32,000 bases of DNA from Aquifex aeolicus VF5 (GTDB lineage: Bacteria; Aquificota; Aquificia; Aquificales; Aquificaceae), in assembly GCF_000008625.1 (NCBI RefSeq), contig NC_001880.1, positions 7,457-39,456 of the forward strand. Reading direction: 5' to 3'. A program made the position numbers and the translations under genes. Shown here piece by piece: positions 1,329 to 31,885 of this stretch. How positions within the stretch are numbered: the stretch's first letter is position 1; each line of letters starts with the position of its first letter. The notes beneath the pieces were generated by a model. The model saw only the letters and a list, made by a program, of their open reading frames with translations, was not told the origin of the DNA and did no database searches.

Positions 1329-2285
1329 GTGAGGGAGGAAGTTGAAAGGAAAATAAAGGAAGTTCTCGGAGTAAAAGAGGAGACTTTAAAGTATGAGGGA
1401 GTTTTCAGACGAAGAAAGAGGAAGGGGGCAAAGGAATACGAATATCTGGAAGCAAAGTTCTATGACATTGAAGAGAAGAAAATTGTAAACGTCCACGTCC
1501 CTGTAAAGAAAGAAAATCTTGTTCTTGAGCTGGACAGGCATTGGAAAGAAAGCAAGAAAAGGGAAAAAGAACTTGAAAAAAGGTTGAAAGAAATAATATC
1601 CGAATACAAAAATCCGGACCTAATAAGAGAAATCCTTGAAAGACTCCTTGAGGAAGGCATTCGGCGAGAAGCAAAAGATTACGCTTATGAAAAATACAAA
1701 AAGGAAGCTCTTGAGCTTTTTGAGAGGTTCAAGCCCTATCTTATCAAGCTAAGAAGGGAAAGACTGAAAAGAATAAACCTTTTGCAAGCACTATACCTTC
1801 TTGCGAATGTAAAGGAAATGTTCCAGGAAAAGGAAGAAGAACTTGAAAAGGTCATGGAAAGAGCGGTAAAAACAATCCTCTTTAGAGACCAAAACCAGAA
1901 ACTTCAGAGTCCTTTGGGAGTCTTGAAAAATGACTTTTTCCTTCCAAAAGAAACTCCTTACGATTTTTTGCTTTCTCGTTTCCTTCAAGCGGAACTCGAA
2001 CCTGTGCTTGAAAAGCTTCTGAAAGCGGAAATAGAAAAAGAAGAGACACAAGAGGCTATGGGAGAAATTGCAGAGTTTCTGACAGAACTTTCTGAAGAAG
2101 CAAAAAGTAGGGTTCTCAAAGTATTTCCATCCTTTTCGCAGTTTTCTAAAGTTTTGTACCGTGAGTGGAAGAAATCCGGACAATCTCTCAAGGATTTTCT
2201 TGTAGATTGGAAAAGCTTTCTCGAGTTCAAAGGAAAAGAAGCTGAAAAGGAAGTTTTGAACGTATTGTCTAAATTGAATTTATAA
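1329..2285 (+). CDS. 318 aa charged, helical protein, paralog A; candidate replication or iteron-associated protein
   Basis: Same length as 22553..23509, with shared blocks LQALYLLANVKE / LQVLYLLANLKE and LKNDFFL...TPYDFLLS.FL. GTG start preceded by GAGAAGG. Function inferred from position next to the iterons only. Confidence 0.75.
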   Translation: MREEVERKIKEVLGVKEETLKYEGVFRRRKRKGAKEYEYLEAKFYDIEEKKIVNVHVPVKKENLVLELDRHWKESKKREKELEKRLKEIISEYKNPDLIREILERLLEEGIRREAKDYAYEKYKKEALELFERFKPYLIKLRRERLKRINLLQALYLLANVKEMFQEKEEELEKVMERAVKTILFRDQNQKLQSPLGVLKNDFFLPKETPYDFLLSRFLQAELEPVLEKLLKAEIEKEETQEAMGEIAEFLTELSEEAKSRVLKVFPSFSQFSKVLYREWKKSGQSLKDFLVDWKSFLEFKGKEAEKEVLNVLSKLNL

Positions 2286-2980: not shown

Positions 2981-3018
2981 AGCAATTAGAAGACTTTGAG
3001 AAATCCGTAAGGGAGAAC
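2965..3018 (+). pseudogene. Remnant of the HEPN-type partner of the MNT gene, cut after about 17 codons
   Basis: TTG 2965 follows AGGAGGG and overlaps the MNT stop. (M)DKFIKQLEDFEKSVRE resembles the N-terminus of nucleotidyltransferase substrate-binding / HEPN proteins. Similarity stops where the IS-terminus sequence begins at about 3017. Confidence 0.3.
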
Positions 3019-3076
3019 GCCAAGTTAAGGATTAGAGGAGTGTAGTGATCTAACGAGAATAAAAGAAGCAAGATGA
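3017..3076 (+). mobile_element. IS terminus copy 1 (GCCAAGTTAAGGATTAGAGGAG...GAGAATAAAAG)
   Basis: About 60 nt alignable by eye with 12246-12320 and 12594-12672, which contain the 3' end of a DDE transposase gene. Confidence 0.65.
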
Positions 3077-4357: not shown

Positions 4358-5404
4358 ATGAGAAGGGAAATACTTTCAAGAACTCTCCTTCTTTCAAGCC
4401 TATTTGTAGCCGGAGGGTTTCTGACTGCCTGCGGAGGCGGCGGTGGAGGAACAGGAGGAGGAGAGCAGGGTAAGATCACAAACGAGCTACAGGCTAAAGC
4501 CGCTTTAGGTAATTCATTAAGTGCAATACGAAGCAGTGCAGGGTTAACCGAAGATACTCAAACAGGAGTAGGAGCTGCATCTGTAGGGAATAAGGGAGGT
4601 TGGCTTAGGGACGCCTTGAAGCTCTACAAGTCCGCTGCTCCTCAAACGGGAACGCTTGCCTCTCAGCAACAGTATACGTGTGATAACGGAGGTACTGCAA
4701 CCATAGATTACTCTTACGATTCAAATACCAGAACCGCCAGTGCAACTATTACTTTTGATAATTGTGGAAACACTTGCAGTCTAAACAAGTATGTCATATT
4801 CAACGGAACTATGCGTTTCTCCGGGAAAGATATCAATCAAAACTATATCTTGGAAAGCGGCAGCATATCTGTAGATTCCGGATTCTCTTATACCGACCAG
4901 TGTGAGAATGAGGGTGTTTACTTCGAGGGCAACTTCTCAATATCTGTGAAGGGGTATATCCCAAATACTGGGGATATTGAAGACGGAAATAATAACTATA
5001 AAGCCGACCTGACACTCGATGGAGGACCCGTTAAGGTTACAGATGGTTCAAAGTGGGAAAGGGGCTCTTTCGATAACTTGACTTTCTATATTAACGAATA
5101 TTATCCCGCAAGCGCTGATTACGAGTGGAAAGTCAACGGGGGTTTCAGGTATCAAGACAGTTACTGCGTAACAGATCCAGTATACCTCAGCTTCAACACA
5201 ACAAACATCTTCAAGGGCTACAACACGGTTGAGTGTGAATACACAGGAAGACTCTCCGTTAATAACGACCTTATAGTTGCAGAATCCTACGATCCCGATA
5301 GTAAGCCTTCCGAAACGGAAAACTACCTTAAAATCCTCTTTAACGGAAATGTGGTATTCGACAACCTCTGTACCAACTTCAATCCTCCGGATACGTGCAG
5401 CTGA
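4358..5404 (+). CDS. Secreted lipoprotein, Gly-rich linker then Asn/Thr/Tyr/Cys-rich domain
   Basis: Signal peptide plus lipobox (LLLSSLFVAGGFLTAC) followed by GGGGGGTGGGE. GGAGG before the ATG. Confidence 0.8.
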   Translation: MRREILSRTLLLSSLFVAGGFLTACGGGGGGTGGGEQGKITNELQAKAALGNSLSAIRSSAGLTEDTQTGVGAASVGNKGGWLRDALKLYKSAAPQTGTLASQQQYTCDNGGTATIDYSYDSNTRTASATITFDNCGNTCSLNKYVIFNGTMRFSGKDINQNYILESGSISVDSGFSYTDQCENEGVYFEGNFSISVKGYIPNTGDIEDGNNNYKADLTLDGGPVKVTDGSKWERGSFDNLTFYINEYYPASADYEWKVNGGFRYQDSYCVTDPVYLSFNTTNIFKGYNTVECEYTGRLSVNNDLIVAESYDPDSKPSETENYLKILFNGNVVFDNLCTNFNPPDTCS

Positions 5405-5494: not shown

Positions 5495-6540
5495 TTACAG
5501 CCCCATCTCCGCCAACCTGTATGAAAAAGTAACCCTTCTCAACTTCTGTTCTGAAGTCTTCCCTGAACCTTTAAATCTTGTTTCGAGCACGTAAACAGCC
5601 TTTTCAGAGCAGTAAACTACATTCGGATAAAGGAAGTTATCATCCTCTACTGCATTTGAGCTGAACCACTCTTTGACTTCTTCAGGTATTGCAAAAGAGT
5701 GATCCTGTAAATAAAGGGCTACGAGTCCCATAACAACGGCCGTAGCCATTGATGTTCCTGCAAAGGGAACATAGTAATGACCTTCGGCACAAATGTAGGG
5801 ATCGGAGTGAGATGAGAATTCTGAATTTGTGCTGCAGATAAAATACCCTCCTGCCACAATGTTTGGTTTTATCCTTCCGTTCCTTGTTGGTCCCCTTGAG
5901 GAAAAGTATGCTATCCTTCCTGCGTTGTAAAATGATTGCGTATCAAGTGGTCTGCTTGCAAAGGCTCCTACCGTTATAACCCTCTTGGAAGTTCCCGGAT
6001 TCGTTACTGTAAAGGTTATCCCTCCTGTAGGATCCCTTTCGTAATGGTCGCTGAAGGAACCGCTACCTGAGATTACCCACATTATCAACCCTGAGTTCAT
6101 TGCACCGCAATTTGTTTCCCAGACCCTCTCATATCCGTTCGTATCCTTTCCCGAATCCACTCCTACGCAGTAATCCGATCCAGGAGCACAGACATCAATT
6201 CTGTATTCGGATCCCTGAATGTACCAGCCCTCTACAAGAAGTAACTCCGTAGTTCACGGATATACGAACTCTATCTTCAACTTCAGTATTACTGGCATGG
6301 ATTCTTTTGCTTCTGTTGTTCCCTAGGGCAGCCACTACAACAAACCCAGACCAGAAACGTTATCTATCTCCTTCTCTAGAAGGGAAGTTCCATCGTGAGA
6401 TCCTGCAAGTGTTTCTACAGCGAGATTTGTAACTGAAGGCATTCCGAGAAGCTCTACATTTTCCTTTATCCATCTCAGCCCTATTATTACATCAGAATTC
6501 GTACATTCCGTAAGTTTATAAACTATCAGGGAAGATGTAA
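5495..6540 (-). pseudogene. Subtilisin-like (S8) serine protease, frameshifted and 5'-truncated
   Basis: ORF 5495..6160 carries the catalytic Ser motif GTSMATAVV. Upstream minus-strand frames give SDVIIGLRWIKEN...SHDGTSLLEKEIDNV and GFVVVAALGNN in two other frames with stops. The Asp/His region is absent. Homology ends at the cassette boundary near 6540. Confidence 0.75.
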
Positions 6541-6574
6541 TCTTTGATTTTCAATAAGTTATTAACCTATTTTA

Positions 6575-6775
6575 AAGCTATCATTAACTCTCGGCAGTGG
6601 AAGTATAGGGCTGTTGTTCAAGCTTGATAGCTTCCTAAAAGTCATTTTGCTTATAGTTGGAGTAGCTTTAACCACAGCTTTTGCAGGGCTTACGATAATC
6701 TTTTACCGAAAAGCTATTGACCTTCTTGAAGAGCTTGAGAAATTAGAAAAGAATAATGAGGCGAAAAATGTATGA
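6575..6775 (+). pseudogene. 5'-truncated paralog of the 89 aa membrane protein 12840..13109 (cassette A)
   Basis: Translation LTLGSGSIGLLFKLDSFLKVILLIVGVALTTAFAGLTIIFYRKAIDLLEELEKLEKNNEAKNV* aligns with the C-terminal two thirds of 12840..13109. No start codon. Confidence 0.55.
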
Positions 6776-6884
6776 TGTAATTGCTTACTTTGGAGCTATT
6801 GCTATTGGGATTATCTTACTGACTATGGCAATTGTGATGCTCAAACTCGCCTTAGAAGAAGGTAAAAAGCCAAAAGCTAAGTAA
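6768..6884 (+). CDS. 38 aa single-TM peptide (MYDVIAYFGAI family)
   Basis: ATG overlaps the upstream stop (ATGTATGA). Paralogs at 15856..15972, 12739..12843 and 7227..7343. Hydrophobic core followed by a Lys-rich tail. Confidence 0.55.
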   Translation: MYDVIAYFGAIAIGIILLTMAIVMLKLALEEGKKPKAK

Positions 6885-6903
6885 AAGAAGGAGAGGAAGT
6901 CTT

Positions 6904-7107
6904 TTGAGACTAAAAAGGGAGACTCTTAAAGAAACAGGAAAGCTTTTCTATGACCTCAGTAAAATTTCCGCAGGTTTGGGGTTGTTGCTTCCTTTCCTTA
7001 AAGGAGAGAACGTAAGCATATTTTCCGCTTTAATTGCACTTTTTTCTTCTCTTGTGTTTTTCGTAATAGGGCTAATTTTAATCAATAAAGGAGCTGAAAA
7101 TGACTGA
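6904..7107 (+). CDS. 67 aa two-TM membrane protein (MRLKRETLKE family)
   Basis: TTG start after GGAGAGGAAG. Paralog 15628..15831 has the same TTG start and the same N-terminus. Confidence 0.6.
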   Translation: MRLKRETLKETGKLFYDLSKISAGLGLLLPFLKGENVSIFSALIALFSSLVFFVIGLILINKGAEND

Positions 7108-7346: not shown

Positions 7347-7692
7347 TTACCTTCTCCAGAACTCCCACCACCTCTTTTGAGGCTTGGCTTCCAGCTTCTT
7401 TATCCTCTCCTGGAGCTCCCTGATGAGTTCGTCTTTCTCCTTTAGCCGTCCTTCAAGTTCCCCTAGTTTGTAGATGGCTTTCTGGAGTTGTTCCTGGGTC
7501 TTTTGATACTCGGAAAATGGAACGATTGCCCCGCTTACAGTTTTTCTCTCTTCGCCTTTGAGTTGTAGATACAGCATTTGTATGGTTCGGCTTACCGCTT
7601 CGGTCTTCAGAAATCCCAAGTGTTCTTGCTATCTCCTGAAGTTCTTGGGTTATCTCTCCCGAAAGTCTAAAGGTCTTTTTAACTCGCTCCAT
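7347..7692 (-). pseudogene. Ribbon-helix-helix (CopG-like) protein with coiled-coil tail, split by a 1-nt frameshift
   Basis: 7453..7692 starts MERVKKTFRLSGEITQELQEIARTLG (RHH beta-strand plus helix). The sequence continues sensibly only in the frame of 7347..7619 (LKTEAVSRTIQMLYL... then a heptad-rich tail). The switch lies near 7612-7625. Confidence 0.6.
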
Positions 7693-7854
7693 AAATCCAT
7701 CTTTAAGGGCGTATGGCTTTTGTATGACTTTTGTCGGGCCTTAAAGCCATACAGGAGGAGCTTGAAATTTCATAGCCATACATAGACGCTTGACTATTAA
7801 GTCCAGGGTTGCATTACGGAAAAGTCAGGTTAAATTATAAATCCGCTACTGTAT

Positions 7855-8055
7855 GAGGGAAGGAACGGGATATCCCAACGAAGGGGAGGTTCCCCGATGA
7901 TGTGGGATGGAAAGTCCCGTTCCTGAAATGAGGTTGGAGTGTTAAGTAACCTGTCCCATCTCCTACATGGAGGTGGGAAAGCCCGCCCTGTGGTGCGGGT
8001 TGGGGTTTCGCTGAAAGGTCCCTCACGTGAGGGACACAATCTAAGCGGAGCCCCT
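7855..8055 (+). ncRNA. Candidate structured ncRNA of unknown class
   Basis: Locally GC-rich island in AT-rich DNA. Nested perfect stems at 7861-7870/7915-7924, 7872-7877/7903-7908 and 7883-7887/7891-7895. A 9-bp stem 7945-7953/7959-7967 has one T-G pair. An 11-bp stem 8002-8012/8044-8054 has two T-G pairs and encloses 8018-8024/8029-8035. The T-G pairs are wobble pairs only if the plus strand is transcribed. Confidence 0.5.
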
Positions 8056-8058
8056 AAA

Positions 8059-8109
8059 GCAACAGCTACTAATGTCTACTTAATGTCTATGTTTTAGAGT
8101 AGCTGTTGC
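8059..8109. other. Perfect 12-bp stem (GCAACAGCTACT / AGTAGCTGTTGC) with a 27-nt loop
   Basis: Read directly from the sequence. The loop contains AATGTCTA twice. The hairpin lies between the RNA candidate and the end of the minus-strand gene 8164..8502. The loop is too large for a classical intrinsic terminator. Confidence 0.5.
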
Positions 8110-8163
8110 AACCACGAGTGTATAGTAAATGCTTGACTATCAAGGTAGAAAGGAAGCTTGTGC

Positions 8164-8502
8164 TTAGATAGGCTCAGTTTTGATTAGTTCAACAAGGGCT
8201 TTCAAAACCTTTATTGCTACCTGGATGTGAGGGTTCTTGGTTTTCAAATCCTTGACTTGTTCATATAGGTCGAGATATCTCTTATCCGCTTGTCTTATCT
8301 CATCCAGTAGCTGTTGCGGTATGTTCTCCTTATTCTTAGCTAAGTCTTCTCTTATTAAAAGGACCTGTGTTAGTTCAAAATCAAGAGCTGTGGGATAATC
8401 AACCTTAAAGTCTTCTATATCCGTGTAAAGTGCTTCGCTAACGTAAATCTTCAAGGAGTCTTCTAAGCTCTTTTCTAAAGTTTTCATTCTTATTCTTTCC
8501 AA
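8164..8502 (-). CDS. Hypothetical protein (start may be the internal ATG at 8487)
   Basis: 112 aa ORF overlapping the upstream ORF by 65 nt in another frame. No recognisable motif. Confidence 0.45.
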
Positions 8503-9018: not shown

Positions 9019-9975
9019 TTACTCCCTCTTAAATTTGTTGTTTCTTTTCAGGATAAATTTAAACCTTTTGCTTATGGACACGCGTGAAACTTTGGAACCT
9101 TTATGATGCCACTCTATTATTCCCATTTCTTCCAGTTTATTTAAATGAGCGTAGAAAGTTCTCTTCTTAAGACCTGAGAGATTCAGCAACTCGTCCGTCT
9201 TCATTCCGTACTCTCTGTCCTTCAAATGTTTAAGGATTGGTTCAAACTTGTGTAAAATTTCTTCATACTTTGCTTTCTCATTAATATACCAAGTAATTGC
9301 TCCATTTTTGTTTATGTAATAGTATATTTTTTCAAAAGGATAAGCAAAATTATGCTTTTCTATTGTCAATACCCGAAAGCTTTTCCCTTCTGTGTAGGCC
9401 TGCATAAAGGGAGTTGTTAAAAACTTAATTGTAGATACGCCCTGATACCTGTCCGTTTTATTTTTTCCTGAACTTTTAATCGTGTGATGAATAAACATTA
9501 TGTGACTTTCAGAATTTCTTGCTAACTTTCTTGTTTTTTTAATAAATTCCTTAACTTCTACAGGATCATAAATAGACTTTCCTTCATAAAAGGCAACAAA
9601 ACTATCAACCACAACAAAATCGTAGCGTTTTTGTTCCAGTATCTTTTCAAAACTCCTGTAATCCGAAATGTCGTCCAGATCCATTATTTCCATTTCTGAA
9701 GTGCTTATTCTGTATCTTTTTCTTATTGGTTCTAACTTTTCTAAGATATCTTCCTTATAAAGTTCCAGAGATATATAGGCTACTTTCTTCGGTTCCTTAA
9801 CTTTGAGTAAATTGTGAAATAAGTTCTTACCTGCACCTGCCAGTAGACACAAGTAAAGGCTTATGGTAGTTTTCCCTACACCTGAATCACCGTAAAGTAT
9901 GGAAACGTATCCCTTCCTGAAAAACTCGTCAAAATTTTGCGCACTGTTGCTCCTTTTGTATTCACTTAACCTCAT
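9019..9975 (-). CDS. RecA-superfamily (RepA/KaiC/AAA_25-like) ATPase with C-terminal winged HTH; candidate plasmid replicative helicase or loader
   Basis: Walker [10 protein letters not shown] and Walker [10 protein letters not shown]-terminal [21 protein letters not shown] looks like a wHTH. Confidence 0.65.
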
Positions 9976-12226: not shown

Positions 12227-12592
12227 CTATTTCCAGAATTTCGAGATTGCCAAGTTAAGGGTTAGAGGAGTGGAATGATCTAACGAGAATAAAAGAGGCA
12301 AATCAAGACCAACAGTTTCATATTTGGCATTGTGGGGAAATCGCTTGTGAAAACCCTTCATCCTTTGCTTTATGTGCTTGAACCACCTCTCCACTACATT
12401 CCTACCTCCGAAAGTTTCATGTATCCATCCGCAGTTTAGTTCCCTACATGCTTTCCTATACCATGGCCCCTTATCCGTTACAAACACGTATCCTTTTGAG
12501 TTGTAAAGCACAAGTTTTGCCACATGGGAGCTTTTTTTAGCACTTAACCACACAAAAGTAGGCACTCCCTTCAAGTTACAAGCTATCCACAA
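12227..12592 (-). pseudogene. 5'-truncated DDE transposase (IS6-like by eye)
   Basis: VTDKGPWYRKACRELNCGWIHETFGGRNVVERWFKHIKQRMKGF resembles the C-terminal catalytic region of IS6-type transposases. The N-terminal catalytic part is missing, replaced by another copy of the same IS terminus at 12594. Confidence 0.6.
12246..12320 (+). mobile_element. IS terminus copy 2 (contains the 3' end of the transposase fragment)
   Basis: GCCAAGTTAAGGGTTAGAGGAGTGGAATGATCTAACGAGAATAAAAGAGGCAAATCAAGACCAACAGTTTCAT aligns with copies 1 and 3. Confidence 0.7.
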
Positions 12593-12593
12593 G

Positions 12594-12672
12594 AGACCGC
12601 CAAGTTAAGGATTAGGGGAAAGGAGAGATTTAATGAGAATAAAAGGAAGCGAGCCAAGACCAGACAGTTTCA
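12594..12672 (+). mobile_element. IS terminus copy 3
   Basis: GCCAAGTTAAGGATTAGGGGAAAGGAGAGATTTAATGAGAATAAAAGGAAGCGAGCCAAGACCAGACAGTTTCAT. Direct repeat of copy 2, about 350 bp away. Confidence 0.7.
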
Positions 12673-13109: not shown

Positions 13110-13233
13110 TTTATCATTCTCCTAAAGACTGAGAATTCCCAAACTTCATCACCAAAGAAGTTTGATATTTGAAAATCAATAGATTGGTAAATATACCTTT
13201 ATAAACATATTGAAAATCAAAGGCTTAAAGCAA

Positions 13234-13648
13234 TCATTCTATAGTTAAGGCATTTGTACACTTCTTTACTCCCTTATCAAAGGACACAACTTTGTATTTC
13301 TTAGAATACGCACAAAGAAGGCAATCTACAAAGTCTAAGTTCTTATTAGAGTATATCTTTAGAGCCTCTATAAGGAGCTCATTATCTTCAATTTTCACAT
13401 TCCTAAGTTCCAGTATGTCTATAAGTACCTGTGATATAGTAGGTCTATCAACTTTATATACTTTCTTGAAGAACATAAACAATTTCGGCTATCACTACCT
13501 GTGGGATAAAAACTTTTAGTTCTCCGGAGAGTATCTTATTAAATAACTCCTCAGCCTCTTTATACAGCTTCCTGTGGTCTTTAAGTAGATATCGCAGGAT
13601 TACATTAGCATTAACAATTATCTCTTTTTCCCCTTTCCGCGAGGCCAT
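13234..13648 (-). pseudogene. vapC: PIN-domain VapC toxin split by a frameshift (copy A)
   Basis: ORFs 13454..13648 and 13234..13482 together form one PIN domain (IIVNANVILRYLL / VIAEIVYVL / KVYKVDRPTISQVL / LDFVDCLL / VVSFDK). The frame changes in the AAGAAAG stretch. The first catalytic Asp position reads Asn. Confidence 0.75.
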
Positions 13649-13859
13649 CGCCTATTGCCTCTTTTTCAGTTTTCATTATCTCTTCTATGGACCTGTCACG
13701 GGTAGCGTATTTGTGTAGAATTCCTCCCAATTTCTTAACAGGTTTAATTATTACTTTTCCCTTCTCATAGGTTATCTCAACTATATCAGTTCCTAATAAT
13801 TTCCTGTACTCAGCAGGTATGGTAATTTGTCCTTTCTTAGTAAGCTTAGCTATTTTCAT
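13611..13859 (-). CDS. vapB: AbrB/SpoVT-type antitoxin (copy A)
   Basis: MKIAKLTKKGQITIPAEYRKLLG is a typical swapped-hairpin AbrB/MazE N-terminus. Lies upstream of, and overlaps, the PIN gene. Confidence 0.8.
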   Translation of the reverse strand: MKIAKLTKKGQITIPAEYRKLLGTDIVEITYEKGKVIIKPVKKLGGILHKYATRDRSIEEIMKTEKEAIGDGLAERGKRDNC

Positions 13860-13960
13860 TCTTACCTACCTCAATAGGTACTACTTATTGTATAAAGTAT
13901 TACTTACATTATATAGTGTTACTTTTCACAAAAATGATTACATAGTATAGGTAGTTGTGA

Positions 13961-14110
13961 TTAGCTATGCTGTTTGTTAGAGACTGCCAAGATAAGGGTG
14001 TAAGAAAATAGGTATATGGGTGTGCCTGCATACGCGTTTATCTTCATCCTTTCTTCATTCTTAAAGGCTTTTATGATTTCTTTCTGTTCTTCCGTTAGTT
14101 TTATACCCAT
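13961..14110 (-). pseudogene. N-terminal fragment of a UvrD/AAA_19-type helicase
   Basis: MGIKLTEEQKEIIKAFKNEERMKINAYAGT then unrelated sequence. The Walker A motif (AGTGKT) is broken after AGT. Confidence 0.5.
13980..14013 (+). mobile_element. IS terminus copy 5 (short)
   Basis: GAGACTGCCAAGATAAGGGTGTAAGAAAATAGGT, compared with copy 4 GAGACCGCCAAGTTAAGGGAAATAGGT. Confidence 0.5.
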
Positions 14111-14127
14111 TAGTTTTAATATAATTT

Positions 14128-14153
14128 GAGACCGCCAAGTTAAGGGAAATAGG
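14128..14153 (+). mobile_element. IS terminus copy 4 (short)
   Basis: GAGACCGCCAAGTTAAGGGAAATAGG, followed directly by TTGAAAATCAA. Confidence 0.55.
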
Positions 14154-15223: not shown

Positions 15224-15448
15224 ATGAAAAGAACGACCATTTTTATAAACGAAGAAACCAAACAAAAAATCAAACTAATAGCCAAGAAAAAGCAAAAAAG
15301 CATGGCAGAAATTATAAGAGAAGCTATAAATGAGTACATTGTAAAACACAAAAAGAATAAGAAGTATTCCTTTATAGGACTTGGTAAAAGCAAAAGATCT
15401 GATATCTCGGAAATTCATGAGGAAAAACTTTGGAAATACTCACAGTAG
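15224..15448 (+). CDS. Ribbon-helix-helix (CopG/VapB-type) antitoxin, with no toxin gene downstream
   Basis: MKRTTIFINEETKQKIKLIAKKKQKSMAEIIREAINEYI is a canonical RHH pattern. Only about 80 bp of non-coding DNA follows. Confidence 0.65.
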   Translation: MKRTTIFINEETKQKIKLIAKKKQKSMAEIIREAINEYIVKHKKNKKYSFIGLGKSKRSDISEIHEEKLWKYSQ

Positions 15449-15527
15449 ATAGGAGAGGTTTTTTGGGAATTAAAATTGGAAGAAGAAATCTGATGCTTTT
15501 ACCATAACAACTCAATTTCTTCGTTAT

Positions 15528-15635: not shown

Positions 15636-15831
15636 CTTCACTTCCCTTATTAACAAAGTAAACTCCCAGCAAAAAGAAGGCGAGCCAAAATCCAAAAACA
15701 AGCAATAAGTAAAATAAGTTCGCCTTATGCTTTTGAAATAATGGAGCAACCAAGCCAACTGAAAGGAAAACTGTGGCAACTGTGAGAAAGCGCTTTCCTA
15801 TTTCCTTAAGTGTTTCCCTTTTCAACCTCAA
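15628..15831 (-). CDS. 67 aa two-TM membrane protein (cassette B), paralog of 6904..7107
   Basis: Same length, same TTG start and the same MRLKRETLKE N-terminus. Confidence 0.6.
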   Translation of the reverse strand: MRLKRETLKEIGKRFLTVATVFLSVGLVAPLFQKHKANLFYLLLVFGFWLAFFLLGVYFVNKGSEDG

Positions 15832-15855
15832 AAGATTTCCTCTCCTTCTTTTACT

Positions 15856-15972
15856 TCACTTAGCTTTTGGCTTTTTACCCTCTTCCAAAGTCATCTTAAG
15901 CATCATAACCACTATAAAGAGAAGAATTCCCCATAGGGCGACAGCTCCCAAGAAGGCAATCACATCATACAT
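15856..15972 (-). CDS. 38 aa single-TM peptide (cassette B), paralog of 6768..6884
   Basis: MYDVIAFLGAVALWGILLFIVVMMLKMTLEEGKKPKAK, with AAGGAGG before the ATG. Confidence 0.55.
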   Translation of the reverse strand: MYDVIAFLGAVALWGILLFIVVMMLKMTLEEGKKPKAK

Positions 15973-16000
15973 TTTTCTCCTCCTTGCTCTTTTCTAATCT

Positions 16001-16190
16001 CTAAAGTTCCTCAAGAAGATCAAGTATTTTCCTGTAAGTAACAATCGTAAAAAGGACAAATCCGAGTGTTAGCGATGAGCCCGCAAAAAGCAAGAAAACC
16101 TTTAGCAAGCTATCAAGCTTTAACAACAGCCCTATATTTCCACCGCCGAAAGTTAATGATAGCTTTAAAATTGGTGAAGGAATTCCAAAC
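16001..16190 (-). pseudogene. 5'-truncated paralog of 12840..13109 (cassette B)
   Basis: The reverse complement aligns at DNA level with 6575-6740. It is truncated at the same point (ATTTTAAAGCTATCATTAAC). Confidence 0.55.
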
Positions 16191-22092: not shown

Positions 22093-22149
22093 TTACATTA
22101 AGATAATAAGCTCTAAAGCCTTCCTTTTCAAGGAAAAAATAGAATTAGA

Positions 22150-22493
22150 GTTCTCCTATATATAGGAGAACTACTTTGAGCTCGCTAAAAATCAAGTCTC
22201 AGACACACCACTTGAACTCCGGAAGTTCTCCTAGCTATAGGAGAACCGCTACTTAACTTATTGATTTTCAAGCACTTTCTGTTTAGTTCTCCTAGAAACA
22301 TTTATATCTTTTTCCATATACAAAAGCTTTTTGTTATTGGAGAAGTAATAAGTTATATAGGAGAACTCTCCTTTCAAGTTTTTGATTTTCAATATAGTTC
22401 TCCTATATATAGGAGAACTTTTGTGATTTTTTCTATTCTGTAATGCCCGATTTTTAGTTTGGTCATAAGTGGTTCTCCTAGAACTAGGAGAAC
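22150..22493. repeat. Palindrome (iteron/operator) array, family 2: GTTCTCCTA-N4-TAGGAGAAC
   Basis: 22-bp palindromes at 22150-22171, 22225-22246, 22397-22418 and 22472-22493. A split palindrome has half-sites at 22286-22295 and 22358-22366. Confidence 0.9.
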
Positions 22494-22552: not shown

Positions 22553-23509
22553 ATGCTTGAAGTTGAAAAAAAGATAAAACAAAAGCTGGGGATAGATGAA
22601 ACAGAGGTCCTGAGCTCCCTAACGAGCTACCGGAAAAAAGGCAAAACCTACTATAAAATTGTAACATACGATTCAAAAACGAAACAATCTAGGAGATACC
22701 ATGTGCCCAGAATGTTCGAAGAGGAGATTTTAGCTCTCTGGAAGCAGCGGCAGAAGTACATTGAAGAAGAAAGGGAACTTGAAAGGGAAGTAAAAAGCCT
22801 CTTAAAAAAATACGGGGATGCAGAAAAGATAAAGGAAATTCTGGAAAAAGTAGCAGGAGAAAGTTTTGATAAAGCTGTTTCCTCTTACGCAATTAAGACT
22901 TACACGAATAAGGCAAAGGAACTCTTTAAGAGTTTTAAAGAAGACCTTATAAAGCTTTACAGGGAGGGAGTTTTAAAAAGGCTTTCAGTTTTGCAGGTCC
23001 TTTACCTTCTTGCAAATTTGAAGGAGATTTCCGAAGATACGGAAAGAGGAAGTTACTTTTTCAAGAAAGGACTGAACACGATAATAAAAGTAGCAAAAAA
23101 CGAACGTATCCCAAATCCTTTCGGAACACTTAAAAACGACTTTTTCCTTTCGGGAAAGCAGACCCCTTATGACTTTCTCCTTTCGAATTTTCTTGAAGAG
23201 CTTATAGGAGAAACTCTAGGAGAACTCCTTGAAAAGGAAATTGAGAAATTAGTAGCGGAAGAAAAAGCAAAAGAAATCGAGGGAAAAGTAAAGAAGTTAA
23301 AGGAAATTGTTTCATGGTTTGAAACCCTTCCCTACGAAATAAAACAGATTGCAAAAGAAGTAATTTCTGACAATGTTCTGGATATTGCAGAAAAGTTCTA
23401 CAAGGATATGAAAGAATGCAATTACTCTCTTGATGAAGCAAAAGCATTTTTAACAAGTTCTCCTAGAGATAACCTGGTGAATTACATGCAATACCTTAAG
23501 TCTATATGA
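22553..23509 (+). CDS. 318 aa charged, helical protein, paralog B; candidate replication or iteron-associated protein
   Basis: Same length and shared motifs with 1329..2285. Confidence 0.75.
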   Translation: MLEVEKKIKQKLGIDETEVLSSLTSYRKKGKTYYKIVTYDSKTKQSRRYHVPRMFEEEILALWKQRQKYIEEERELEREVKSLLKKYGDAEKIKEILEKVAGESFDKAVSSYAIKTYTNKAKELFKSFKEDLIKLYREGVLKRLSVLQVLYLLANLKEISEDTERGSYFFKKGLNTIIKVAKNERIPNPFGTLKNDFFLSGKQTPYDFLLSNFLEELIGETLGELLEKEIEKLVAEEKAKEIEGKVKKLKEIVSWFETLPYEIKQIAKEVISDNVLDIAEKFYKDMKECNYSLDEAKAFLTSSPRDNLVNYMQYLKSI

Positions 23510-26435: not shown

Positions 26436-27398
26436 ATGACGTATCAAAACGGTGTTGAAGTTTTACTTGAGGAATTTCTTGATTATCTAACAAAGGAAGA
26501 AACCATATGCTCGCTGGAAATAGAAAAGTTAAAAGTTTCTATAGACGAACTTGAGAAAGAAACTGATGAGCCGAGAGTACTTCAAGGGATAAACTATTTC
26601 AGAACCGCAAAAGAAGTTTACCAACTTTCACGGAAAGCATATGAAACAAAAGAGGAAGTGGTCTCTGAAGCTTTAATACTATGGATTTATGAAAACCTAT
26701 GGAAAGGATTTAATGTTCCCAAGGGATATAGAAAAAGTGATATGGTTATTTTCGGTGCAAAATTTAGTCCTCCACCACCATATGTTGTTCCGAACCTTAT
26801 AAGAACAATAGTAAACTGGCTAAGGAATGAGAAAACAATAGATGTAGTTAAGAAATCTATTATTTTCCACACGCTATTTGAAGTTATACATCCGTTTCCT
26901 GACGGCAACGGAAGAGTGGGAAGAATACTTTTGAATGCAATCCTCGTAGAAAACGGACTCTTAAATGTTGCTTTTAGAAATAGAGAGAAATATATCTCCG
27001 CCTTGAGAGAAGCTGAAGAGGGAGCTATAGTAGTTGTTGAAAAACTATCAAGAGGAAGAAAAATAGATTATTCATCTATTACAGAAACTGTAGAGTATTA
27101 CGGAAACTTAAATGTTTTTGATGAACTAATAAGAACCGAGATGATGCACAGCTTGAAGGTATACTCAAATATAAAGCAAGTTTTCTTAACTCCAGAGGAG
27201 GCAGCAAAACTTTTAGGTTTAAAGAATAAGGATTACGTAAGAGTTCTAATCCACAGAGGAAAACTAAAAGCAGTTAAGGAAGAAGGTAAGTGGAAGATAC
27301 CTCTTTCTGAAGTTGTAAAGAACTTTGAACACAAACTGAAAGGAGAAGAATTCAAACTTGCCAATAATTTGTTCAAAGGTAAACTTAGTCCTTCTTAA
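26436..27398 (+). CDS. Fic-domain protein with C-terminal excisionase-type HTH
   Basis: Fic motif HPFPDGNGRVGR. C-terminal LTPEEAAKLLGLKNKDYVRVLIHRGKLKAVKEEGKWKIPLSEVV resembles HTH_17/excisionase domains. Confidence 0.85.
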   Translation: MTYQNGVEVLLEEFLDYLTKEETICSLEIEKLKVSIDELEKETDEPRVLQGINYFRTAKEVYQLSRKAYETKEEVVSEALILWIYENLWKGFNVPKGYRKSDMVIFGAKFSPPPPYVVPNLIRTIVNWLRNEKTIDVVKKSIIFHTLFEVIHPFPDGNGRVGRILLNAILVENGLLNVAFRNREKYISALREAEEGAIVVVEKLSRGRKIDYSSITETVEYYGNLNVFDELIRTEMMHSLKVYSNIKQVFLTPEEAAKLLGLKNKDYVRVLIHRGKLKAVKEEGKWKIPLSEVVKNFEHKLKGEEFKLANNLFKGKLSPS

Positions 27399-27438: not shown

Positions 27439-27490
27439 GTCCTATATATAGGACAACTTTTCTACAGAGTTCTCATATCGGTATGAGAAC
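27439..27490. repeat. Two palindromes: GTCCTATATATAGGAC and a perfect family-3 site GTTCTCATATCGGTATGAGAAC
   Basis: 27439-27454 and 27469-27490, read directly from the sequence. Confidence 0.85.
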
Positions 27491-27781
27491 TTTTGCGTTG
27501 TGAACCATGGTTTACAACCTCAGGCAAGTCTTAACTGAGCTAAATTTAACCAAACTAAATTAATATACTTATGGAATATATACACGAAAGTATAAGAGAA
27601 TTCTGTTGTAAAAAGGGAGTGGGGTGTTCTAATTCTATCATTAATTCTGTCTCTTCTTGCAACATATGTGTAAACATTTTTCAAGGTAAGAAAGAAGAAG
27701 GTTTAACTTGAATTCCAAAAGCTCTTCAACTTTTTATTTTGCATCAGACATAGGAAAAAATCCTCCAAAACTCGGACCAAG

Positions 27782-29060: not shown

Positions 29061-29274
29061 GAAGTAAGGTTTTTTGAATTTACGAAAGTAAGGCTAAAGA
29101 GGGAAGTCAAGTTGGTGAATTTCAAGGAAGTAAGGTTGAAGACAGGGAAGTAAGGTTCGTGAATTTGCAGGAAGTAAGGTTAAAGAGGGAAGTAGGGAAG
29201 TTTCGTATTGTGTGAATTCGCAGGAAGTAAGGGACAAGCGGGAAGTCTTGTGAATTTTTACCTTTTTGTGAATT
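29061..29274 (+). repeat. Iteron array of interleaved GGAAGTAAGG and GTGAATT boxes
   Basis: GAAGTAAGG-type boxes at about 29061, 29084, 29126, 29145, 29170 and 29223, with variants at 29101, 29188 and 29240. GTGAATT-type boxes at 29115, 29159, 29212, 29250 and 29268 (TGAATT only at 29075). All are in one orientation. Confidence 0.8.
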
Positions 29275-29574: not shown

Positions 29575-30613
29575 TTGTAAACCTTGGTTGAGCCTGTTGA
29601 AAAAATCGTCATGACTTAGAGAATAAAGCGAGAGGAAGCCCATGTAATCCTCAAAAGGTTAAGACACAATAAAAGGAGCTTCAGAAGAAGGATCAAGTTG
29701 TAAAGAACAAACCTCCCTAGAACATACAAACTCGCAATCTCAAAGTCATAAACATTGTCCCTGTCCCCAAACCTGTTCTTAACTATCCCTATCACCTGCT
29801 CAACCCTGTACCTGTTCTTTCTATAAACCTTCCTCCTTATCTCATAATTCCTCTTAGCCCATAGCCTATACATGTTCCTAACTCTTGTATGTGCAGTATC
29901 CCTCACCGGAACTATAGACTCCATCCGTAGCTTCTTTATTTCCTCTAAAACTCCTGCAGACTTCCCATAGTAGGCATCCCCAAGAAAATACCTCGCTCTA
30001 AAGCCAAGTTCTTTGAGCATGGATCTTAGCAGCATATTCTCATCTGCATAGGATTTGCCTGTGTTTATATCCACTACTATAGCTTTGTTTCTTACAACTC
30101 CTACAAGAACTTCTGTTTTCACATGAGATTTTACATTCCTAAGTTCCTTTCCCTTCTTCCACTTGAGTTCATATGCCTGTGCATATCCAAATCCGGTTCC
30201 GTCAGCAATAAGGCAGTAAAACTCTTTTGCCTGAAGCTTTTCCATTATCTCCTTTGCGGTCCTGTGTATTAGCTCTTTGAGATAGCCCCGGTTTAGTTTT
30301 CTGAACCTGTAGTGGAGAGTGGTAAAGTCAGGTACTTTGGGGAATAGGTCTTTTAGTCTTTCTTCTAAATCTCGGAGGGAGAGGTTTTCTAAGATCTTAA
30401 TCAGTAGTGCTGCTACTATGAGGTGATCTTCGTAAACTCTGGGTCTTCCTCTTTTGTTGTACTGACTTGGTCTAATGGTATTGCATATTTCCCTGCTTTT
30501 GGTTAATATCAGTTTTATCAATTGCTTGTTATTTCTTGTTCTCATTCCCTTCCTTCTACTTCTTCTCTTCCACTGTGTCAAGATTTTTTAAACGGGCTTA
30601 CCTTGGTTTACAA
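29575..30613 (-). mobile_element. IS element (IS4/IS5-superfamily type) with imperfect terminal inverted repeats
   Basis: Left end TTGTAAACCTTGGT at 29575. The right end reverse complement is TTGTAAACCAAGGT, ending at 30613. Encloses a single transposase ORF. No clear target duplication seen. Confidence 0.7.
29616..30581 (-). CDS. DDE transposase (DDE_Tnp_1 / IS4-IS5 type)
   Basis: 321 aa with LIADGTG, FLGDAYYG and YRKNRYRVEQVIGIVKNRFG, a D, D, E pattern with the Y-R-E signature. Confidence 0.8.
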   Translation of the reverse strand: MTQWKRRSRRKGMRTRNNKQLIKLILTKSREICNTIRPSQYNKRGRPRVYEDHLIVAALLIKILENLSLRDLEERLKDLFPKVPDFTTLHYRFRKLNRGYLKELIHRTAKEIMEKLQAKEFYCLIADGTGFGYAQAYELKWKKGKELRNVKSHVKTEVLVGVVRNKAIVVDINTGKSYADENMLLRSMLKELGFRARYFLGDAYYGKSAGVLEEIKKLRMESIVPVRDTAHTRVRNMYRLWAKRNYEIRRKVYRKNRYRVEQVIGIVKNRFGDRDNVYDFEIASLYVLGRFVLYNLILLLKLLLLCLNLLRITWASSRFIL

Positions 30614-30695
30614 TTCCTGGAAAACAAAAAGGAATGACTTTCTAAGAGTGACGAATCGGTTTACATTAGGAAATACATATTAAGGATAAGTAAGG

Positions 30696-30944
30696 ATGAA
30701 GATAGCTAAGCTTACTAAGAAGGGACAATTTACCATACCTACGGGATATAGGAAATTATTAGGAACTTATATAGTTGAAATAACCTATGAGAAAGGAAAA
30801 GTAATAATTAAACCTGCTAAGAAATTGGGAGGAATTCTACATAAATACGCTATCCGGGACAGGTCCATAGAAGAGATAATGAAAACTGAAAAAGAGGCAA
30901 TAGGCGATGGCCTCGCGGAAAGGGGAAAAAGAGATAATTGTTAA
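30696..30944 (+). CDS. vapB: AbrB/SpoVT-type antitoxin (copy B)
   Basis: 82 aa with 6 substitutions relative to copy A, all in the first 53 residues. Confidence 0.8.
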   Translation: MKIAKLTKKGQFTIPTGYRKLLGTYIVEITYEKGKVIIKPAKKLGGILHKYAIRDRSIEEIMKTEKEAIGDGLAERGKRDNC

Positions 30945-31321
30945 TGCTAATGTAATCCTGCGATATCTACTTAAAGACCACAGGAAGCTGTATAAAGAGG
31001 CTGAGGAGTTATTTAATAAGATACTCTCCGGAGAACTAAAAGTTTTTATCCCACAGGTAGTGATAGCCGAAATTGTTTATGTTCTTCAAGAAAGTATATA
31101 AAGTTGATAGACCTACTATATCACAGGTACTTATAGACATACTGGAACTTAGGAATGTGAAAATTGAAGATAATGAGCTCCTTATAGAGGCTCTAAAGAT
31201 ATACTCTAATAAGAACTTAGACTTTGTAGATTGCCTTCTTTGTGCGTATTCTAAGAAATACAAAGTTGTGTCCTTTGATAAGGGAGTAAAGAAGTGTACA
31301 AATGCCTTAACTATAGAATGA
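30907..31321 (+). pseudogene. vapC: PIN-domain VapC toxin split by the same frameshift (copy B)
   Basis: ORFs 30907..31101 and 31073..31321 are identical in protein sequence to the copy A ORFs. Confidence 0.75.
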
Positions 31322-31555
31322 TTGCTTTAAGCCTTTGATTTTCAATATGTTTATAAAGGTATATTTACCAATCTATTGATTTTCAAATATCAAACTTCTT
31401 TGTCCAAGAAGTTTGGAAAAATAAATCAAAAGGAGGAGGTAGAAAAATGCTAAGAAAACTCTTCTTTCTCCTCATTTTCCTGAGTGCAATCACACTTGCA
31501 GTTCCAGAAGAAGTTTGAGGTTTGATAATCAATATGTTTATAAACTTCTGGCAGG

Positions 31556-31716
31556 CTTTCTATCCCATATATGGGGACTAAAACGAATTCCCCAAGGGGT
31601 GGAAGACGCCGTGCCGAAGTTCTTTCTATCCCACATATGGTAACTAAAACTAAATACAAATCAACAAATAATGCAGATAAGGTATGACTTTCTATCCCAT
31701 ATATGGGAACTAAAAC
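31556..31716 (-). CRISPR. Mini-CRISPR array: three 29-nt repeats and two 37-nt spacers
   Basis: Repeats at 31556-31584, 31622-31650 and 31688-31716 (CTTTCTATCCCATATATGGGGACTAAAAC, with 3 and 1 mismatches). Internal palindrome TCCCATATATGGGA. The reverse complement reads GTTTTAGTCCCCATATATGGGATAGAAAG, so minus-strand transcription is likely. Confidence 0.75.
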
Positions 31717-31885
31717 GATTACTCGATAAAACTTACTCACCTCCTAACAAAGATGAACATACAGATGGGGAAAGCAGGGCTTGCGGTAGTGTTTGACAAA
31801 TTACAAGAAGGCGAGTTTTTTGAAAACGAAGGGGAGGGAGAAAAAGAGTACGTCTGGGTTGAGAAGTGGAAAGGGGCTATTGTGC

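What the first reader, a model, noticed from the sequence alone, without database searches (positions are those of the whole stretch)
7855..8055. GC-rich island folds into a multi-stem structure with strand-specific G-U pairs: candidate novel ncRNA
In AT-rich thermophile DNA, GC-rich non-coding islands usually mark structural RNAs. About 200 nt form the following:
- A three-level nested hairpin (7861-7924).
- A 9-bp hairpin (7945-7967).
- A short GC hairpin (7982-7999).
- An 11-bp stem (8002-8012/8044-8054) that encloses a 7-bp hairpin.

The three non-Watson-Crick positions are all T-G on the plus strand. They would be A-C mismatches on the minus strand, which argues for a plus-strand transcript. 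The overlapping minus-strand ORFs (7830..8039, 7835..8026) are Pro/Arg/Gly/Ser-rich and do not look like proteins. I cannot match it to a known RNA family by eye. Its position between an RHH gene and another small operon on a plasmid would suit a copy-control, antitoxin or guide-type RNA.
Basis: partly seen in the sequence, partly recalled or inferred. Interest (0 to 1): 0.75.

Follow-up and report, generated by a model that had tools for sequence, protein, structure and literature searches.

The report
Gene-less IS607 transposon remnant with guide RNA
The "novel RNA" is mostly the guide-RNA (ωRNA) scaffold at the right end of an IS607-family transposon, kept in a 358-bp derivative that has lost both transposon genes; this is a known kind of element, not a new class of plasmid RNA.

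Summary
The structure is real. It is the most over-folded stretch of the window (281 nt, + strand z = -7.9, - strand -6.0) and a GC island. It is not a new RNA class.

- **Right end:** window 7949-8115 is 87-92% identical to the last ~135 nt of tnpB plus ~30 nt beyond its stop codon. The matches come from IS607-family elements (serine-recombinase TnpA plus 468-aa TnpB) of Aquificaceae. All copies end at ...GCAACCAC, after which their flanks diverge.
- **Left end:** window 7758-7802 is ~86% identical to the left end of the same elements.
- **Covariation:** across 9 copies, the four right-end stem-loops keep 99.3% of pairs. Nine pairs show compensatory changes, and several one-sided changes are G·U-tolerant only on the + strand.
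- **Unexplained part:** the fourth structure, the nested hairpin at 7861-7924, lies in a 146-nt middle segment with no homolog found.
- **Missing genes:** the window has no tnpA or tnpB.

Best reading: a protein-less mini-IS607, like the PATEs of IS605, whose ωRNA could serve a TnpB supplied in trans. Expression is unproven because only an 8/12 promoter match exists. It is a new member of a known kind, with no Rfam model. Interest is modest.

The parts
7758..7802 (+). Left end (LE) of an IS607-family element. Starts at the invariant GAGCTT and holds the -35 box TTGACT (7790-7795) of the tnpA promoter. The -10 box and everything downstream are deleted.
   Evidence: 82-88% identity to the sequence just upstream of tnpA in loci L015, L016, L017, L019, L020, L024, L025, L027 and L031. 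In alignment A3 all copies start at GAGCTT and their upstream flanks are unrelated. Full-length L015 has TTGACA-17-AATAAT, an 11/12 match.
7803..7948 (+). Middle segment of unknown origin, where tnpA and tnpB would sit in a full-length element. Contains the only candidate + strand promoter, ATTACG (7813-7818) - 17 nt - TATAAA (7836-7841), an 8/12 match.
   Evidence: No similarity to any of the fetched loci except the identical source contig L006. No hit for its six-frame translations among 5.8 billion proteins. Promoter scans.
7861..7924 (+). Three-level nested hairpin (9-, 7- and 5-bp stems), specific to this copy. Proposed, but unproven, to act as a 5' stabilising cap of the transcript.
   Evidence: -35.1 kcal/mol, z = -4.3 on +; z = -3.5 on -. 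In full-length elements the 85 nt upstream of the scaffold are not structured (z = +0.3 to +0.7).
7949..8115 (+). Right end (RE), which is the TnpB ωRNA (reRNA) scaffold, 167 nt. It ends at the transposon boundary ...GCAACCAC.
   Evidence: 87-92% identity to the tnpB 3' end plus downstream sequence in 11 loci. Every match starts at 7949 and ends at 8115. z = -8.7. Covariance model R1 scores 196 bits. Window 7951-8079 translates to TnpB residues 427-468.
7954..7978 (+). ωRNA stem-loop 1 (10 bp, loop UACAU).
   Evidence: 100% of cells paired in 9 copies. One compensatory pair (C-G to U-A) and two one-sided changes that keep G·U pairing.
7980..8001 (+). ωRNA stem-loop 2 (GC-rich, 9 bp with a bulge).
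   Evidence: 98.8% of cells paired. One compensatory pair (C-G to A-U).
8002..8054 (+). ωRNA stem-loop 3: 11-bp outer stem 8002-8012/8044-8054 enclosing the hairpin 8018-8035.
   Evidence: Outer stem: 100% paired, two compensatory pairs. Inner hairpin: two compensatory pairs (C-G/U-A swaps), and it is absent from the most divergent copy, L020.
8060..8108 (+). ωRNA terminal stem-loop 4 (11 bp, 27-nt loop with invariant AUGUUUU). It is followed by the unpaired CAACCAC (8109-8115).
   Evidence: 98.1% paired, three compensatory pairs. C-G to U·G and A-U to G·U changes would be C·A mismatches on the - strand.
8116..8135 (+). Predicted guide segment of the ωRNA: the first ~16-20 nt of flanking DNA, GAGTGTATAGTAAATGCTTG.
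   Evidence: Position is inferred from the known TnpB ωRNA layout of scaffold then guide beyond the RE (PMC10055086; bioRxiv 10.1101/2023.11.20.567912). Flanks of all copies diverge exactly here. The sequence is unique in the window.

Best explanation
Window 7758-8115 is a 358-bp non-autonomous derivative of an IS607-family insertion sequence of Aquificaceae. It keeps the left end (7758-802) and the complete right end (7949-8115). It has lost tnpA (serine recombinase) and tnpB (RNA-guided nuclease), and a 146-nt segment of unknown origin sits in their place.

The right end encodes the ωRNA scaffold, four conserved stem-loops read from the + strand. In full-length elements this scaffold overlaps the last ~45 codons of tnpB and stops at the transposon boundary.

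**Shown here**
- Homology of both ends to full-length elements.
- Exact shared boundaries.
- Conserved RNA structure with covariation.
- Absence of tnpA and tnpB from the window.

**Inferred**
- A + strand transcript starts around 7848 from a weak promoter in the middle segment.
- It carries the copy-specific 5' hairpin and runs through the scaffold into ~16-20 nt of flanking DNA (8116-8135), which serves as the guide.
- It is bound in trans by a TnpB from a full-length copy elsewhere in the cell.
- That complex would cut the empty site left after TnpA-mediated excision, so the mini-element would be copied back. This is the homing and retention mechanism described for IS605/IS607.

I put the identity of the element at about 0.9. 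I put 'still expressed and used in trans' at about 0.4-0.5.
For: **How the match was found**
- A six-frame translation of the element hit only three proteins: 468-aa TnpB homologs (PF07282 plus PF27142), matched in their C-terminal tail.
- In those loci tnpB directly follows a 211-aa MerR-HTH plus Resolvase gene. That is the IS607 layout.

**Homology of the ends**
- blastn matches window 7949-8115 to the tnpB 3' end plus ~30 nt at 87-92% identity in 11 loci. It matches 7758-7802 to the sequence upstream of tnpA at 82-88%.
- Flanks diverge exactly at both boundaries.

**RNA structure**
- RNAalifold and pair counts on 9 copies give 48 pairs, 99.3% paired.
- Nine pairs have changes on both sides (0 of 500 shuffles reach this). 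Slid controls are only 38-52% paired.
- The + strand folds at z = -8.7 versus -5.3 on the - strand.
- Nucleotide variability in full-length copies drops from ~11 per 30 to 2-6 per 30 columns about 180 nt before the RE end. That roughly coincides with where the mini-element's homology starts.

**The partner protein**
- PDB homology of TnpB stops at residue 421, and the RuvC motifs (VDL, NADxNA) are conserved.

**Precedent**
- Gene-less PATE-like IS605 elements that encode ωRNAs for TnpB acting in trans are described in PMC10055086.
Against: - There is no convincing + strand promoter. The LE -10 box is deleted, and the best candidate matches 8/12.
- Neither tnpB nor tnpA is in the 32-kb window. 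No cognate TnpB could be shown in the same genome.
- Only one copy exists in the window.
- No second mini-copy was found in any collection scanned.
- The middle 146 nt, including the 5' hairpin, is unexplained.
- I could not find a crossover dinucleotide shared by the LE (GAGCTT...) and RE (...CCAC) junctions, as the IS607 GG model would predict.
- The covariation rests on about six distinct lineages, and most of the scaffold was also under coding constraint in the full-length copies.
Confidence: 0.6

Rival explanations
1. Inert relic. It has the same origin, an internally deleted IS607 copy, but it is no longer transcribed, mobilised or used. The structure survives only because the deletion is recent.
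For: - No good promoter.
- No tnpA or tnpB in the window.
- A single copy.
- The neighbouring RHH gene is itself frameshifted, so this region tolerates decay.
- The window's scaffold differs from L014 by only ~8%, and its distinctive inner-hairpin stem is shared with L014, so that feature is inherited and is not evidence of selection here.
Against: - Both transposon boundaries and all 48 scaffold pairs are intact.
- The deletion removed everything upstream of the scaffold but none of it.
- All differences from relatives fall in loops or keep pairing.
Confidence: 0.3
2. The conserved right end matters only as DNA, as the binding and synapsis site for the serine recombinase TnpA. The hairpins are a by-product.
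For: - IS607 ends must be recognised by TnpA.
- An 8-nt subterminal inverted match exists between the LE (ACATAGAC, 7780-7787) and the RE (GTCTATGT, 8085-8092). A related CATACA/TGTATG pair occurs in L027.
Against: - Compensatory changes occur in stems across 167 nt.
- One-sided changes are tolerated only as G·U on the + strand (C-G to U·G, A-U to G·U).
- The + strand folds better (z = -8.7 versus -5.3). This points to RNA-level selection.
- Recombinase sites are normally a few tens of bp.
Confidence: 0.05
3. An independent, novel plasmid regulatory RNA (copy-control, antitoxin or similar) unrelated to transposons.
For: - It lies in an intergenic gap next to an RHH gene on a replicon with several RepA-like genes.
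- No Rfam family matches.
- The 5' hairpin at 7861-7924 has no known relative.
Against: - 167 of ~200 nt are homologous to IS607 right ends found in unrelated genomic contexts.
- Three RHH-homolog loci lack it.
- It overlaps no mRNA leader that it could act on in cis.
Confidence: 0.03
4. A small protein-coding gene lies in the region.
For: - ORFs of 52-69 aa exist on both strands.
- The + frame over 7951-8079 is 86% identical to a TnpB C-terminal tail.
Against: - No Pfam hits.
- No homologs for the minus-strand frames.
- The + frame match is only the tail beyond the TnpB fold. It is preceded by a stop codon at 7924-7926 and lacks the other 426 residues.
- No gene with these products is on record.
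Confidence: 0.01

Closest known systems
ωRNA / reRNA of IS607-family TnpB elements, such as the C. botulinum and C. senegalense IS607 elements and IStrons (bioRxiv 10.1101/2023.11.20.567912) and the RAGATH-18-derived reRNAs of IS607 TnpBs (PMC11061315)
   Same: - In relatives it is encoded at the transposon right end and overlaps the 3' end of tnpB.
- It ends at the RE boundary, so the guide comes from flanking DNA.
- It has a multi-stem scaffold with covariation.
- The partner element has a serine-recombinase TnpA (MerR HTH plus Resolvase) followed by TnpB.
   Different: - The sequence and structure family differs. No Rfam model matches, even at E <= 10.
- The partner TnpB is 468 aa with an Aq_aa04 (PF27142) N-terminal region and comes from hyperthermophilic Aquificaceae.
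- The scaffold ends in ...CCAC, not ...UCGG. No G-rich TAM or GG core is evident, only an invariant GAG at the LE junction.
- In this window the tnpB gene itself is gone.
PATE-like non-autonomous IS200/IS605 elements that carry only ends plus an ωRNA (Meers et al., PMC10055086)
   Same: - No protein genes.
- Both transposon ends are retained in the correct orientation.
- The ωRNA scaffold is retained and would need TnpB and TnpA in trans.
   Different: - The parent family is IS607 (serine recombinase, dsDNA intermediate), not IS605 (Y1 transposase, ssDNA hairpin ends).
- It carries 146 nt of foreign sequence with its own strong hairpin.
- Only one copy was seen, so multi-copy MITE behaviour is not shown.
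Plasmid antisense copy-control RNAs and RHH (CopG-type) circuits
   Same: It is a small structured RNA candidate next to an RHH repressor gene on a plasmid-like replicon.
   Different: - There is no antisense overlap with a rep or RHH leader.
- The element is bounded by transposon ends.
- It is absent from RHH-homolog loci.

Membership tests
IS607-family TnpB ωRNA (right-end RNA) | Sequence and structure homology to the right end of elements that encode serine-recombinase TnpA plus TnpB | tested here: met
   - 87-92% identity over 7949-8115 to 11 loci.
- Covariance model R1 scores 196 bits.
- Locus gene content was confirmed by Pfam and by PDB TnpB/Cas12f hits.
IS607-family TnpB ωRNA (right-end RNA) | The scaffold overlaps the tnpB 3' end and terminates exactly at the transposon boundary, with unrelated flanks (the guide position) beyond it | tested here: met
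   - In alignment A2, all copies end at GCAACCAC and then diverge.
- The tnpB stop codon lies ~30 nt before the boundary.
- Window 7951-8079 matches TnpB residues 427-468.
IS607-family TnpB ωRNA (right-end RNA) | Conserved secondary structure supported by covariation on the transcribed strand | tested here: met
   - 48 pairs, 99.3% paired.
- Nine pairs with compensatory changes (0 of 500 shuffles reach this).
- Slid controls are 38-52% paired.
- Only 9 sequences from about six lineages, so the support is modest in depth.
IS607-family TnpB ωRNA (right-end RNA) | A cognate tnpB gene immediately upstream in the same element | tested here: not met
   - tblastn of P0024 finds only residues 427-468 in the window.
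- No ORF longer than 348 aa is present.
- The window copy is therefore an orphan scaffold, not a complete TnpB-ωRNA locus.
IS607-family TnpB ωRNA (right-end RNA) | A target-adjacent motif next to the LE that matches the TnpA target, with a core dinucleotide shared by both junctions | tested here: inconclusive
   - GAG is invariant at the LE junction in 8 independent insertions.
- No dinucleotide is shared with the RE junction ...CCAC|N.
- No empty site was available.
IS607-family TnpB ωRNA (right-end RNA) | The RNA is transcribed, bound by TnpB and guides DNA cleavage | not testable with these tools
   There are no expression or biochemical data. Promoter evidence is weak.
Non-autonomous mini-IS (PATE/MITE-like) | Both cognate ends present in the correct order and orientation, with no transposase or accessory gene between them | tested here: met
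   - LE at 7758-7802 and RE at 7949-8115 on the same strand, 146 nt apart.
- No tnpA or tnpB similarity in between.
Non-autonomous mini-IS (PATE/MITE-like) | Several copies at different sites, showing mobilisation in trans | tested here: not met
   - One copy in the window.
- None in the other loci fetched.
- The rest of the source genome could not be searched.
Any curated Rfam family | A score at or above the family's gathering threshold | tested here: not met
   - No matches in the whole window at gathering thresholds.
- Only three noise-level matches (E = 3.6-10) in 7500-8400.
Plasmid antisense or antitoxin RNA | Overlaps or pairs with the leader of a rep or toxin mRNA and is conserved together with that gene | tested here: not met
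   - It lies wholly in the gap between the 112-aa ORF stop (8164) and the RHH start (7692).
- RHH homolog loci L002-L005 lack it.

The most novel reading that the evidence does not exclude
The mini-element is not a decaying fragment. It is a stand-alone 'guide-only' selfish element of the IS607 family. It has acquired its own promoter and a new 5' hairpin domain, and it parasitises TnpA and TnpB made by full-length copies in hyperthermophilic Aquifex plasmids. Alternatively, the plasmid has co-opted it so that a resident TnpB cuts plasmid variants lacking the insertion.
Probability: 0.12. Interest if true: 0.55.

Novelty: new member of a known kind. Interest (0 to 1): 0.3.

Why it matters
- **Reclassification.** An apparent 'novel plasmid ncRNA' turns out to be a transposon guide RNA. 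GC-rich structured islands in AT-rich thermophile DNA can be ωRNA scaffolds left behind by IS607/IS605 elements, even when no tnpB is nearby.
- **An uncatalogued family.** It flags an ωRNA family with no Rfam model. The family is paired with a 468-aa TnpB in hyperthermophilic Aquificaceae, which could be of practical interest as a heat-stable RNA-guided nuclease.
- **A possible IS607 counterpart to PATEs.** If the gene-less copy is active, serine-recombinase IS607 elements also spawn guide-only hitchhikers, as described for IS605 PATEs.

Tried and rejected
**Searches that found nothing**
- Rfam at gathering and at permissive thresholds gave nothing meaningful. ARAGORN found no tRNA or tmRNA.
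- PLSDB plasmids (DNA near and distant modes, and TnpB protein) and INPHARED phages gave no match.
- Three IMG/VR pattern scans with stem or RE-terminal motifs returned no hits or chance hits only. A TnpB protein scan of IMG/VR found only distant TnpBs without this RNA.

**Linkage to the RHH gene, rejected**
- I repaired the frameshifted RHH protein and found 23 homologs. I fetched three loci and found no element there.
- Only a GTATGGC...TTGTATGAC operator-like motif recurs.

**Checked with no result**
- Internal paralogs of the element in the window: none.
- Origin of the middle 146 nt: no similarity to any part of the full-length elements or any fetched locus.
- A structured 5' extension of the ωRNA inside tnpB: the 85 nt upstream are unstructured.
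- An empty-site allele: none found among the fetched loci.
- Exact-product look-ups of the ORFs over the element: not on record.
- A guide match elsewhere in the window: none.

**Literature**
- Lechner et al. 2014 list an A. aeolicus candidate, n2, described as 'plasmid region' (PMC4227106). No sequence is given there, so I could not compare it.

**Considered and dropped**
- A pseudoknot between the GAAA internal loop and the AUGUUUU terminal loop is not supported in L020.

Full report

Yes. The interval is a GC island. 200-nt windows reach 0.51-0.555 GC against 0.36-0.43 on either side. It folds far better than chance. For 7840-8120 the + strand gives -129.9 kcal/mol, z = -7.9, with 0 of 200 dinucleotide shuffles as stable. 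The - strand gives -106.6, z = -6.0.

I also regressed 200-nt folding energies on GC over the whole window. On the + strand, the five most over-folded windows of all 32 kb are the ones covering 7801-8200.

- The nested hairpin 7861-7924 is exact.
- The '9-bp hairpin 7945-7967' is actually a 10-bp hairpin at 7954-7978.
- The GC hairpin is 7980-8001.
- The 11-bp stem 8002-8012/8044-8054 and its inner hairpin 8018-8035 are exact.
- A further 11-bp hairpin at 8060-8108 belongs to the same unit.
- The minimum-energy fold has six G·U pairs within 7855-8055, not three.

**2. Setting**

The element lies in a 470-nt gap between two minus-strand genes. One is a 112-aa ORF (8502 to 8164). The other is an RHH gene starting at 7692.

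The RHH gene is frameshifted near 7604-7608. After repair it has 113-aa full-length homologs at 65-71% identity, including Aquifex pyrophilus proteins. The window is 100% identical to Logan contigs from run SRR29904085. The neighbourhood includes an AAA_25 RepA-like gene. The source is therefore an Aquifex-like, plasmid-like replicon.

Rfam gives nothing at gathering thresholds and only noise at E <= 10. There are no tRNA or tmRNA genes. Three loci with RHH homologs do not carry the element, so it is not part of the RHH module.

**3. What it is**

I translated every stop-free stretch of the element in all six frames and searched them as one pseudo-protein. The only hits were three 468/469-aa proteins carrying PF07282 (Cas12f1-like TNB) and PF27142 (Aq_aa04). 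The match fell in their C-terminal tail.

These proteins are TnpB homologs. They match solved TnpB and Cas12f structures up to residue 421, with the RuvC VDL and NADxNA motifs conserved. In their contigs each sits directly after a 211-aa MerR-HTH plus Resolvase gene. That is the IS607-family layout.

DNA comparison then gave two matches:
- Window 7949-8115 is 87-92% identical to the last ~135 nt of tnpB plus ~30 nt beyond its stop codon. This holds in 11 loci, and every match begins at 7949 and ends at 8115. All copies end at GTAGCTGTTGCAACCAC, after which the flanks are unrelated.
- Window 7758-7802 is 82-88% identical to the sequence just upstream of tnpA. All copies begin at GAGCTT, with unrelated sequence before it.

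So 7758-8115 is bounded by the left and right ends of this IS607 element, in the correct order and orientation. The window has no tnpA or tnpB. tblastn finds only TnpB residues 427-468 and no recombinase. This is an internally deleted, protein-less derivative of 358 bp.

**4. The right end is an RNA, read from the + strand**

In TnpB elements, the ωRNA scaffold is known to overlap the tnpB 3' end and stop at the right-end boundary. The guide is transcribed from the flanking DNA (PMC10055086; bioRxiv 10.1101/2023.11.20.567912).

Here, nine copies give a consensus of four stem-loops with 48 pairs:
- 99.3% of cells are paired.
- Nine pairs show changes on both sides. None of 500 column shuffles reaches this, and versions with the 3' partners slid by 1-3 columns are only 38-52% paired.
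- Several one-sided changes (C-G to U·G, A-U to G·U) are tolerated only on the + strand.
- The scaffold alone folds at z = -8.7 on + and -5.3 on -.

In full-length copies, nucleotide variability falls from ~11 to 2-6 variable columns per 30 about 180 nt before the boundary. The 85 nt upstream of that are not structured (z = +0.3 to +0.7). The deletion in the window copy therefore removed everything upstream of the conserved scaffold and none of it.

The TnpB 'tail' beyond residue 421 is simply the translated scaffold.

One caveat applies. The alignment has only about six distinct lineages, and most of the scaffold was also under coding constraint.

**5. What remains unexplained**

They have no homolog in any fetched locus. 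Their translations find nothing among 5.8 billion proteins.

The deletion junction falls between the -35 and -10 boxes of the tnpA promoter. Full-length L015 has TTGACA-17-AATAAT, an 11/12 match. The window keeps only TTGACT at 7790-7795. The best + strand promoter candidate is ATTACG-17-TATAAA (7813-7841), an 8/12 match. The standard scan finds none.

If that candidate is used, transcription would start near 7848. The hairpin would then be a 5' cap on an ωRNA-like transcript. This is inference.

I also could not find a crossover dinucleotide shared by the two junctions, as the GG model of IS607 would predict. There is only an invariant GAG at the left junction.

**6. Mechanism and rivals**

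Most likely (overall confidence 0.6; identity about 0.9): this is a non-autonomous mini-IS607. Its ωRNA has scaffold 7949-8115 and guide 8116 to about 8135. It would be loaded by a TnpB made elsewhere and would direct cleavage of the empty site after excision. That would favour re-copying of the element, as shown for IS605 and IS607 elements. It is analogous to PATE-like elements that carry only an ωRNA.

The main rival (0.3) is that it is an inert, recently deleted relic:
- In its favour: the weak promoter, the single copy, and the absence of tnpA and tnpB.
- Against it: intact boundaries, all stems intact, and a deletion that spares the scaffold precisely.

Three other readings have little support:
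- A DNA-only role as a TnpA site (0.05) does not explain the G·U-specific covariation.
- An independent plasmid regulatory RNA (0.03) is contradicted by the transposon homology.
- A protein-coding gene (0.01) is contradicted.

**7. Comparison with known systems and novelty**

It works like, and is homologous to, the right-end ωRNA of an IS607-family TnpB element.

As a member of that class it meets the tests for homology, boundary position and conserved structure. It fails 'cognate tnpB adjacent', so it should be filed as an orphan ωRNA scaffold in a mini-element, not as a complete TnpB-ωRNA locus.

It matches no Rfam family, and PLSDB and INPHARED hold no relative. The family appears to be uncatalogued and is so far seen only in Aquificaceae assemblies.

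Verdict: a new member of a known kind, interest 0.3.

Noticed in passing
window 7347-7692 (- strand), frameshift near 7604-7608: The RHH gene next to the element is split over two frames. Residues 1-29 of 113-aa homologs match frame -3 (7692-7606), and residues 25-113 match frame -1 (7619-7353). This is either a pseudogene or a sequencing error. The same sequence is in the Logan contig, where only the 76-aa C-terminal part was called.
   Followed up: yes
window 7711-7733 and 7746-7752; also L005:3949-3970, L002/L003:160-177 and 5332-5354, L001:4438-4471: A GTATGGC...TTGTATGAC motif, with the inverted partner GCCATAC, sits 19-41 nt upstream of the RHH start. It recurs upstream of RHH homologs and of other small genes in related Aquificaceae loci. 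It is probably a shared operator or promoter motif.
   Followed up: partly
window 7788-7802 and 8131-8145: GCTTGACTAT[T/C]AAG occurs once inside the left end (the tnpA -35 region) and again 16 nt beyond the right end. By blast statistics this is chance level (E = 4.7). It could instead reflect a target preference of the recombinase for sequences that resemble its own ends.
   Followed up: partly
window 7780-7787 versus 8085-8092; L027 LE and RE: A subterminal inverted 8-mer, ACATAGAC in the LE and GTCTATGT in the RE. A related CATACA/TGTATG pair occurs in a full-length copy. These are candidate TnpA binding motifs.
   Followed up: partly
window 7996 and 8571 (ends of Logan contigs L006 and L001): Short-read contigs from two runs (SRR29904085 and SRR29904083) both stop at window 7996, inside the conserved right end. 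This suggests a branch in the assembly graph, meaning other copies or variants of this right end in the same samples.
   Followed up: partly
window 1329-2285 (+), 9019-9975 (-), 22553-23509 (+), 26436-27398 (+), 29616-30581 (-): Five ORFs of 318-321 aa. The one checked (9019-9975) is an AAA_25 / DnaB-like RepA with a C-terminal winged HTH. Clusters of palindromic, iteron-like repeats lie at 885-1266, 22146-22426, 27465-27498, 29061-29246 and 31556-31718. This is an unusually redundant set of replication-like modules for 32 kb.
   Followed up: partly
window 3010-3071, 12240-12301, 12590-12651, 13977-14005, 14125-14153; ORF 12227-12592 (-): A repeated ~30-60-nt sequence (GAGA..GCCAAGTTAAGG.TTAGAGG) flanks a 121-aa ORF that reads like a fragment of a DDE transposase. 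These are probably ends of another, unrelated IS family.
   Followed up: no
window 13136-13868 and 30687-31419: A 733-nt inverted repeat at 97% identity, 16.8 kb apart. Shorter inverted paralogous blocks lie at 6562-6943 versus 15792-16178.
   Followed up: no
window 5495-6160 (-): A 221-aa ORF matches only the C-terminal half of the Peptidase_S8 (subtilase) profile, positions 134-276 of 288. It is probably a truncated gene.
   Followed up: no
PMC4227106, Table 3, candidate n2: Lechner et al. 2014 list an Aquifex aeolicus ncRNA candidate, n2 (15301-15474, +, 'plasmid region', RNALfold z = -3.66, no cDNA reads). It might be a related GC-rich structured island. No sequence was available for comparison.
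   Followed up: no
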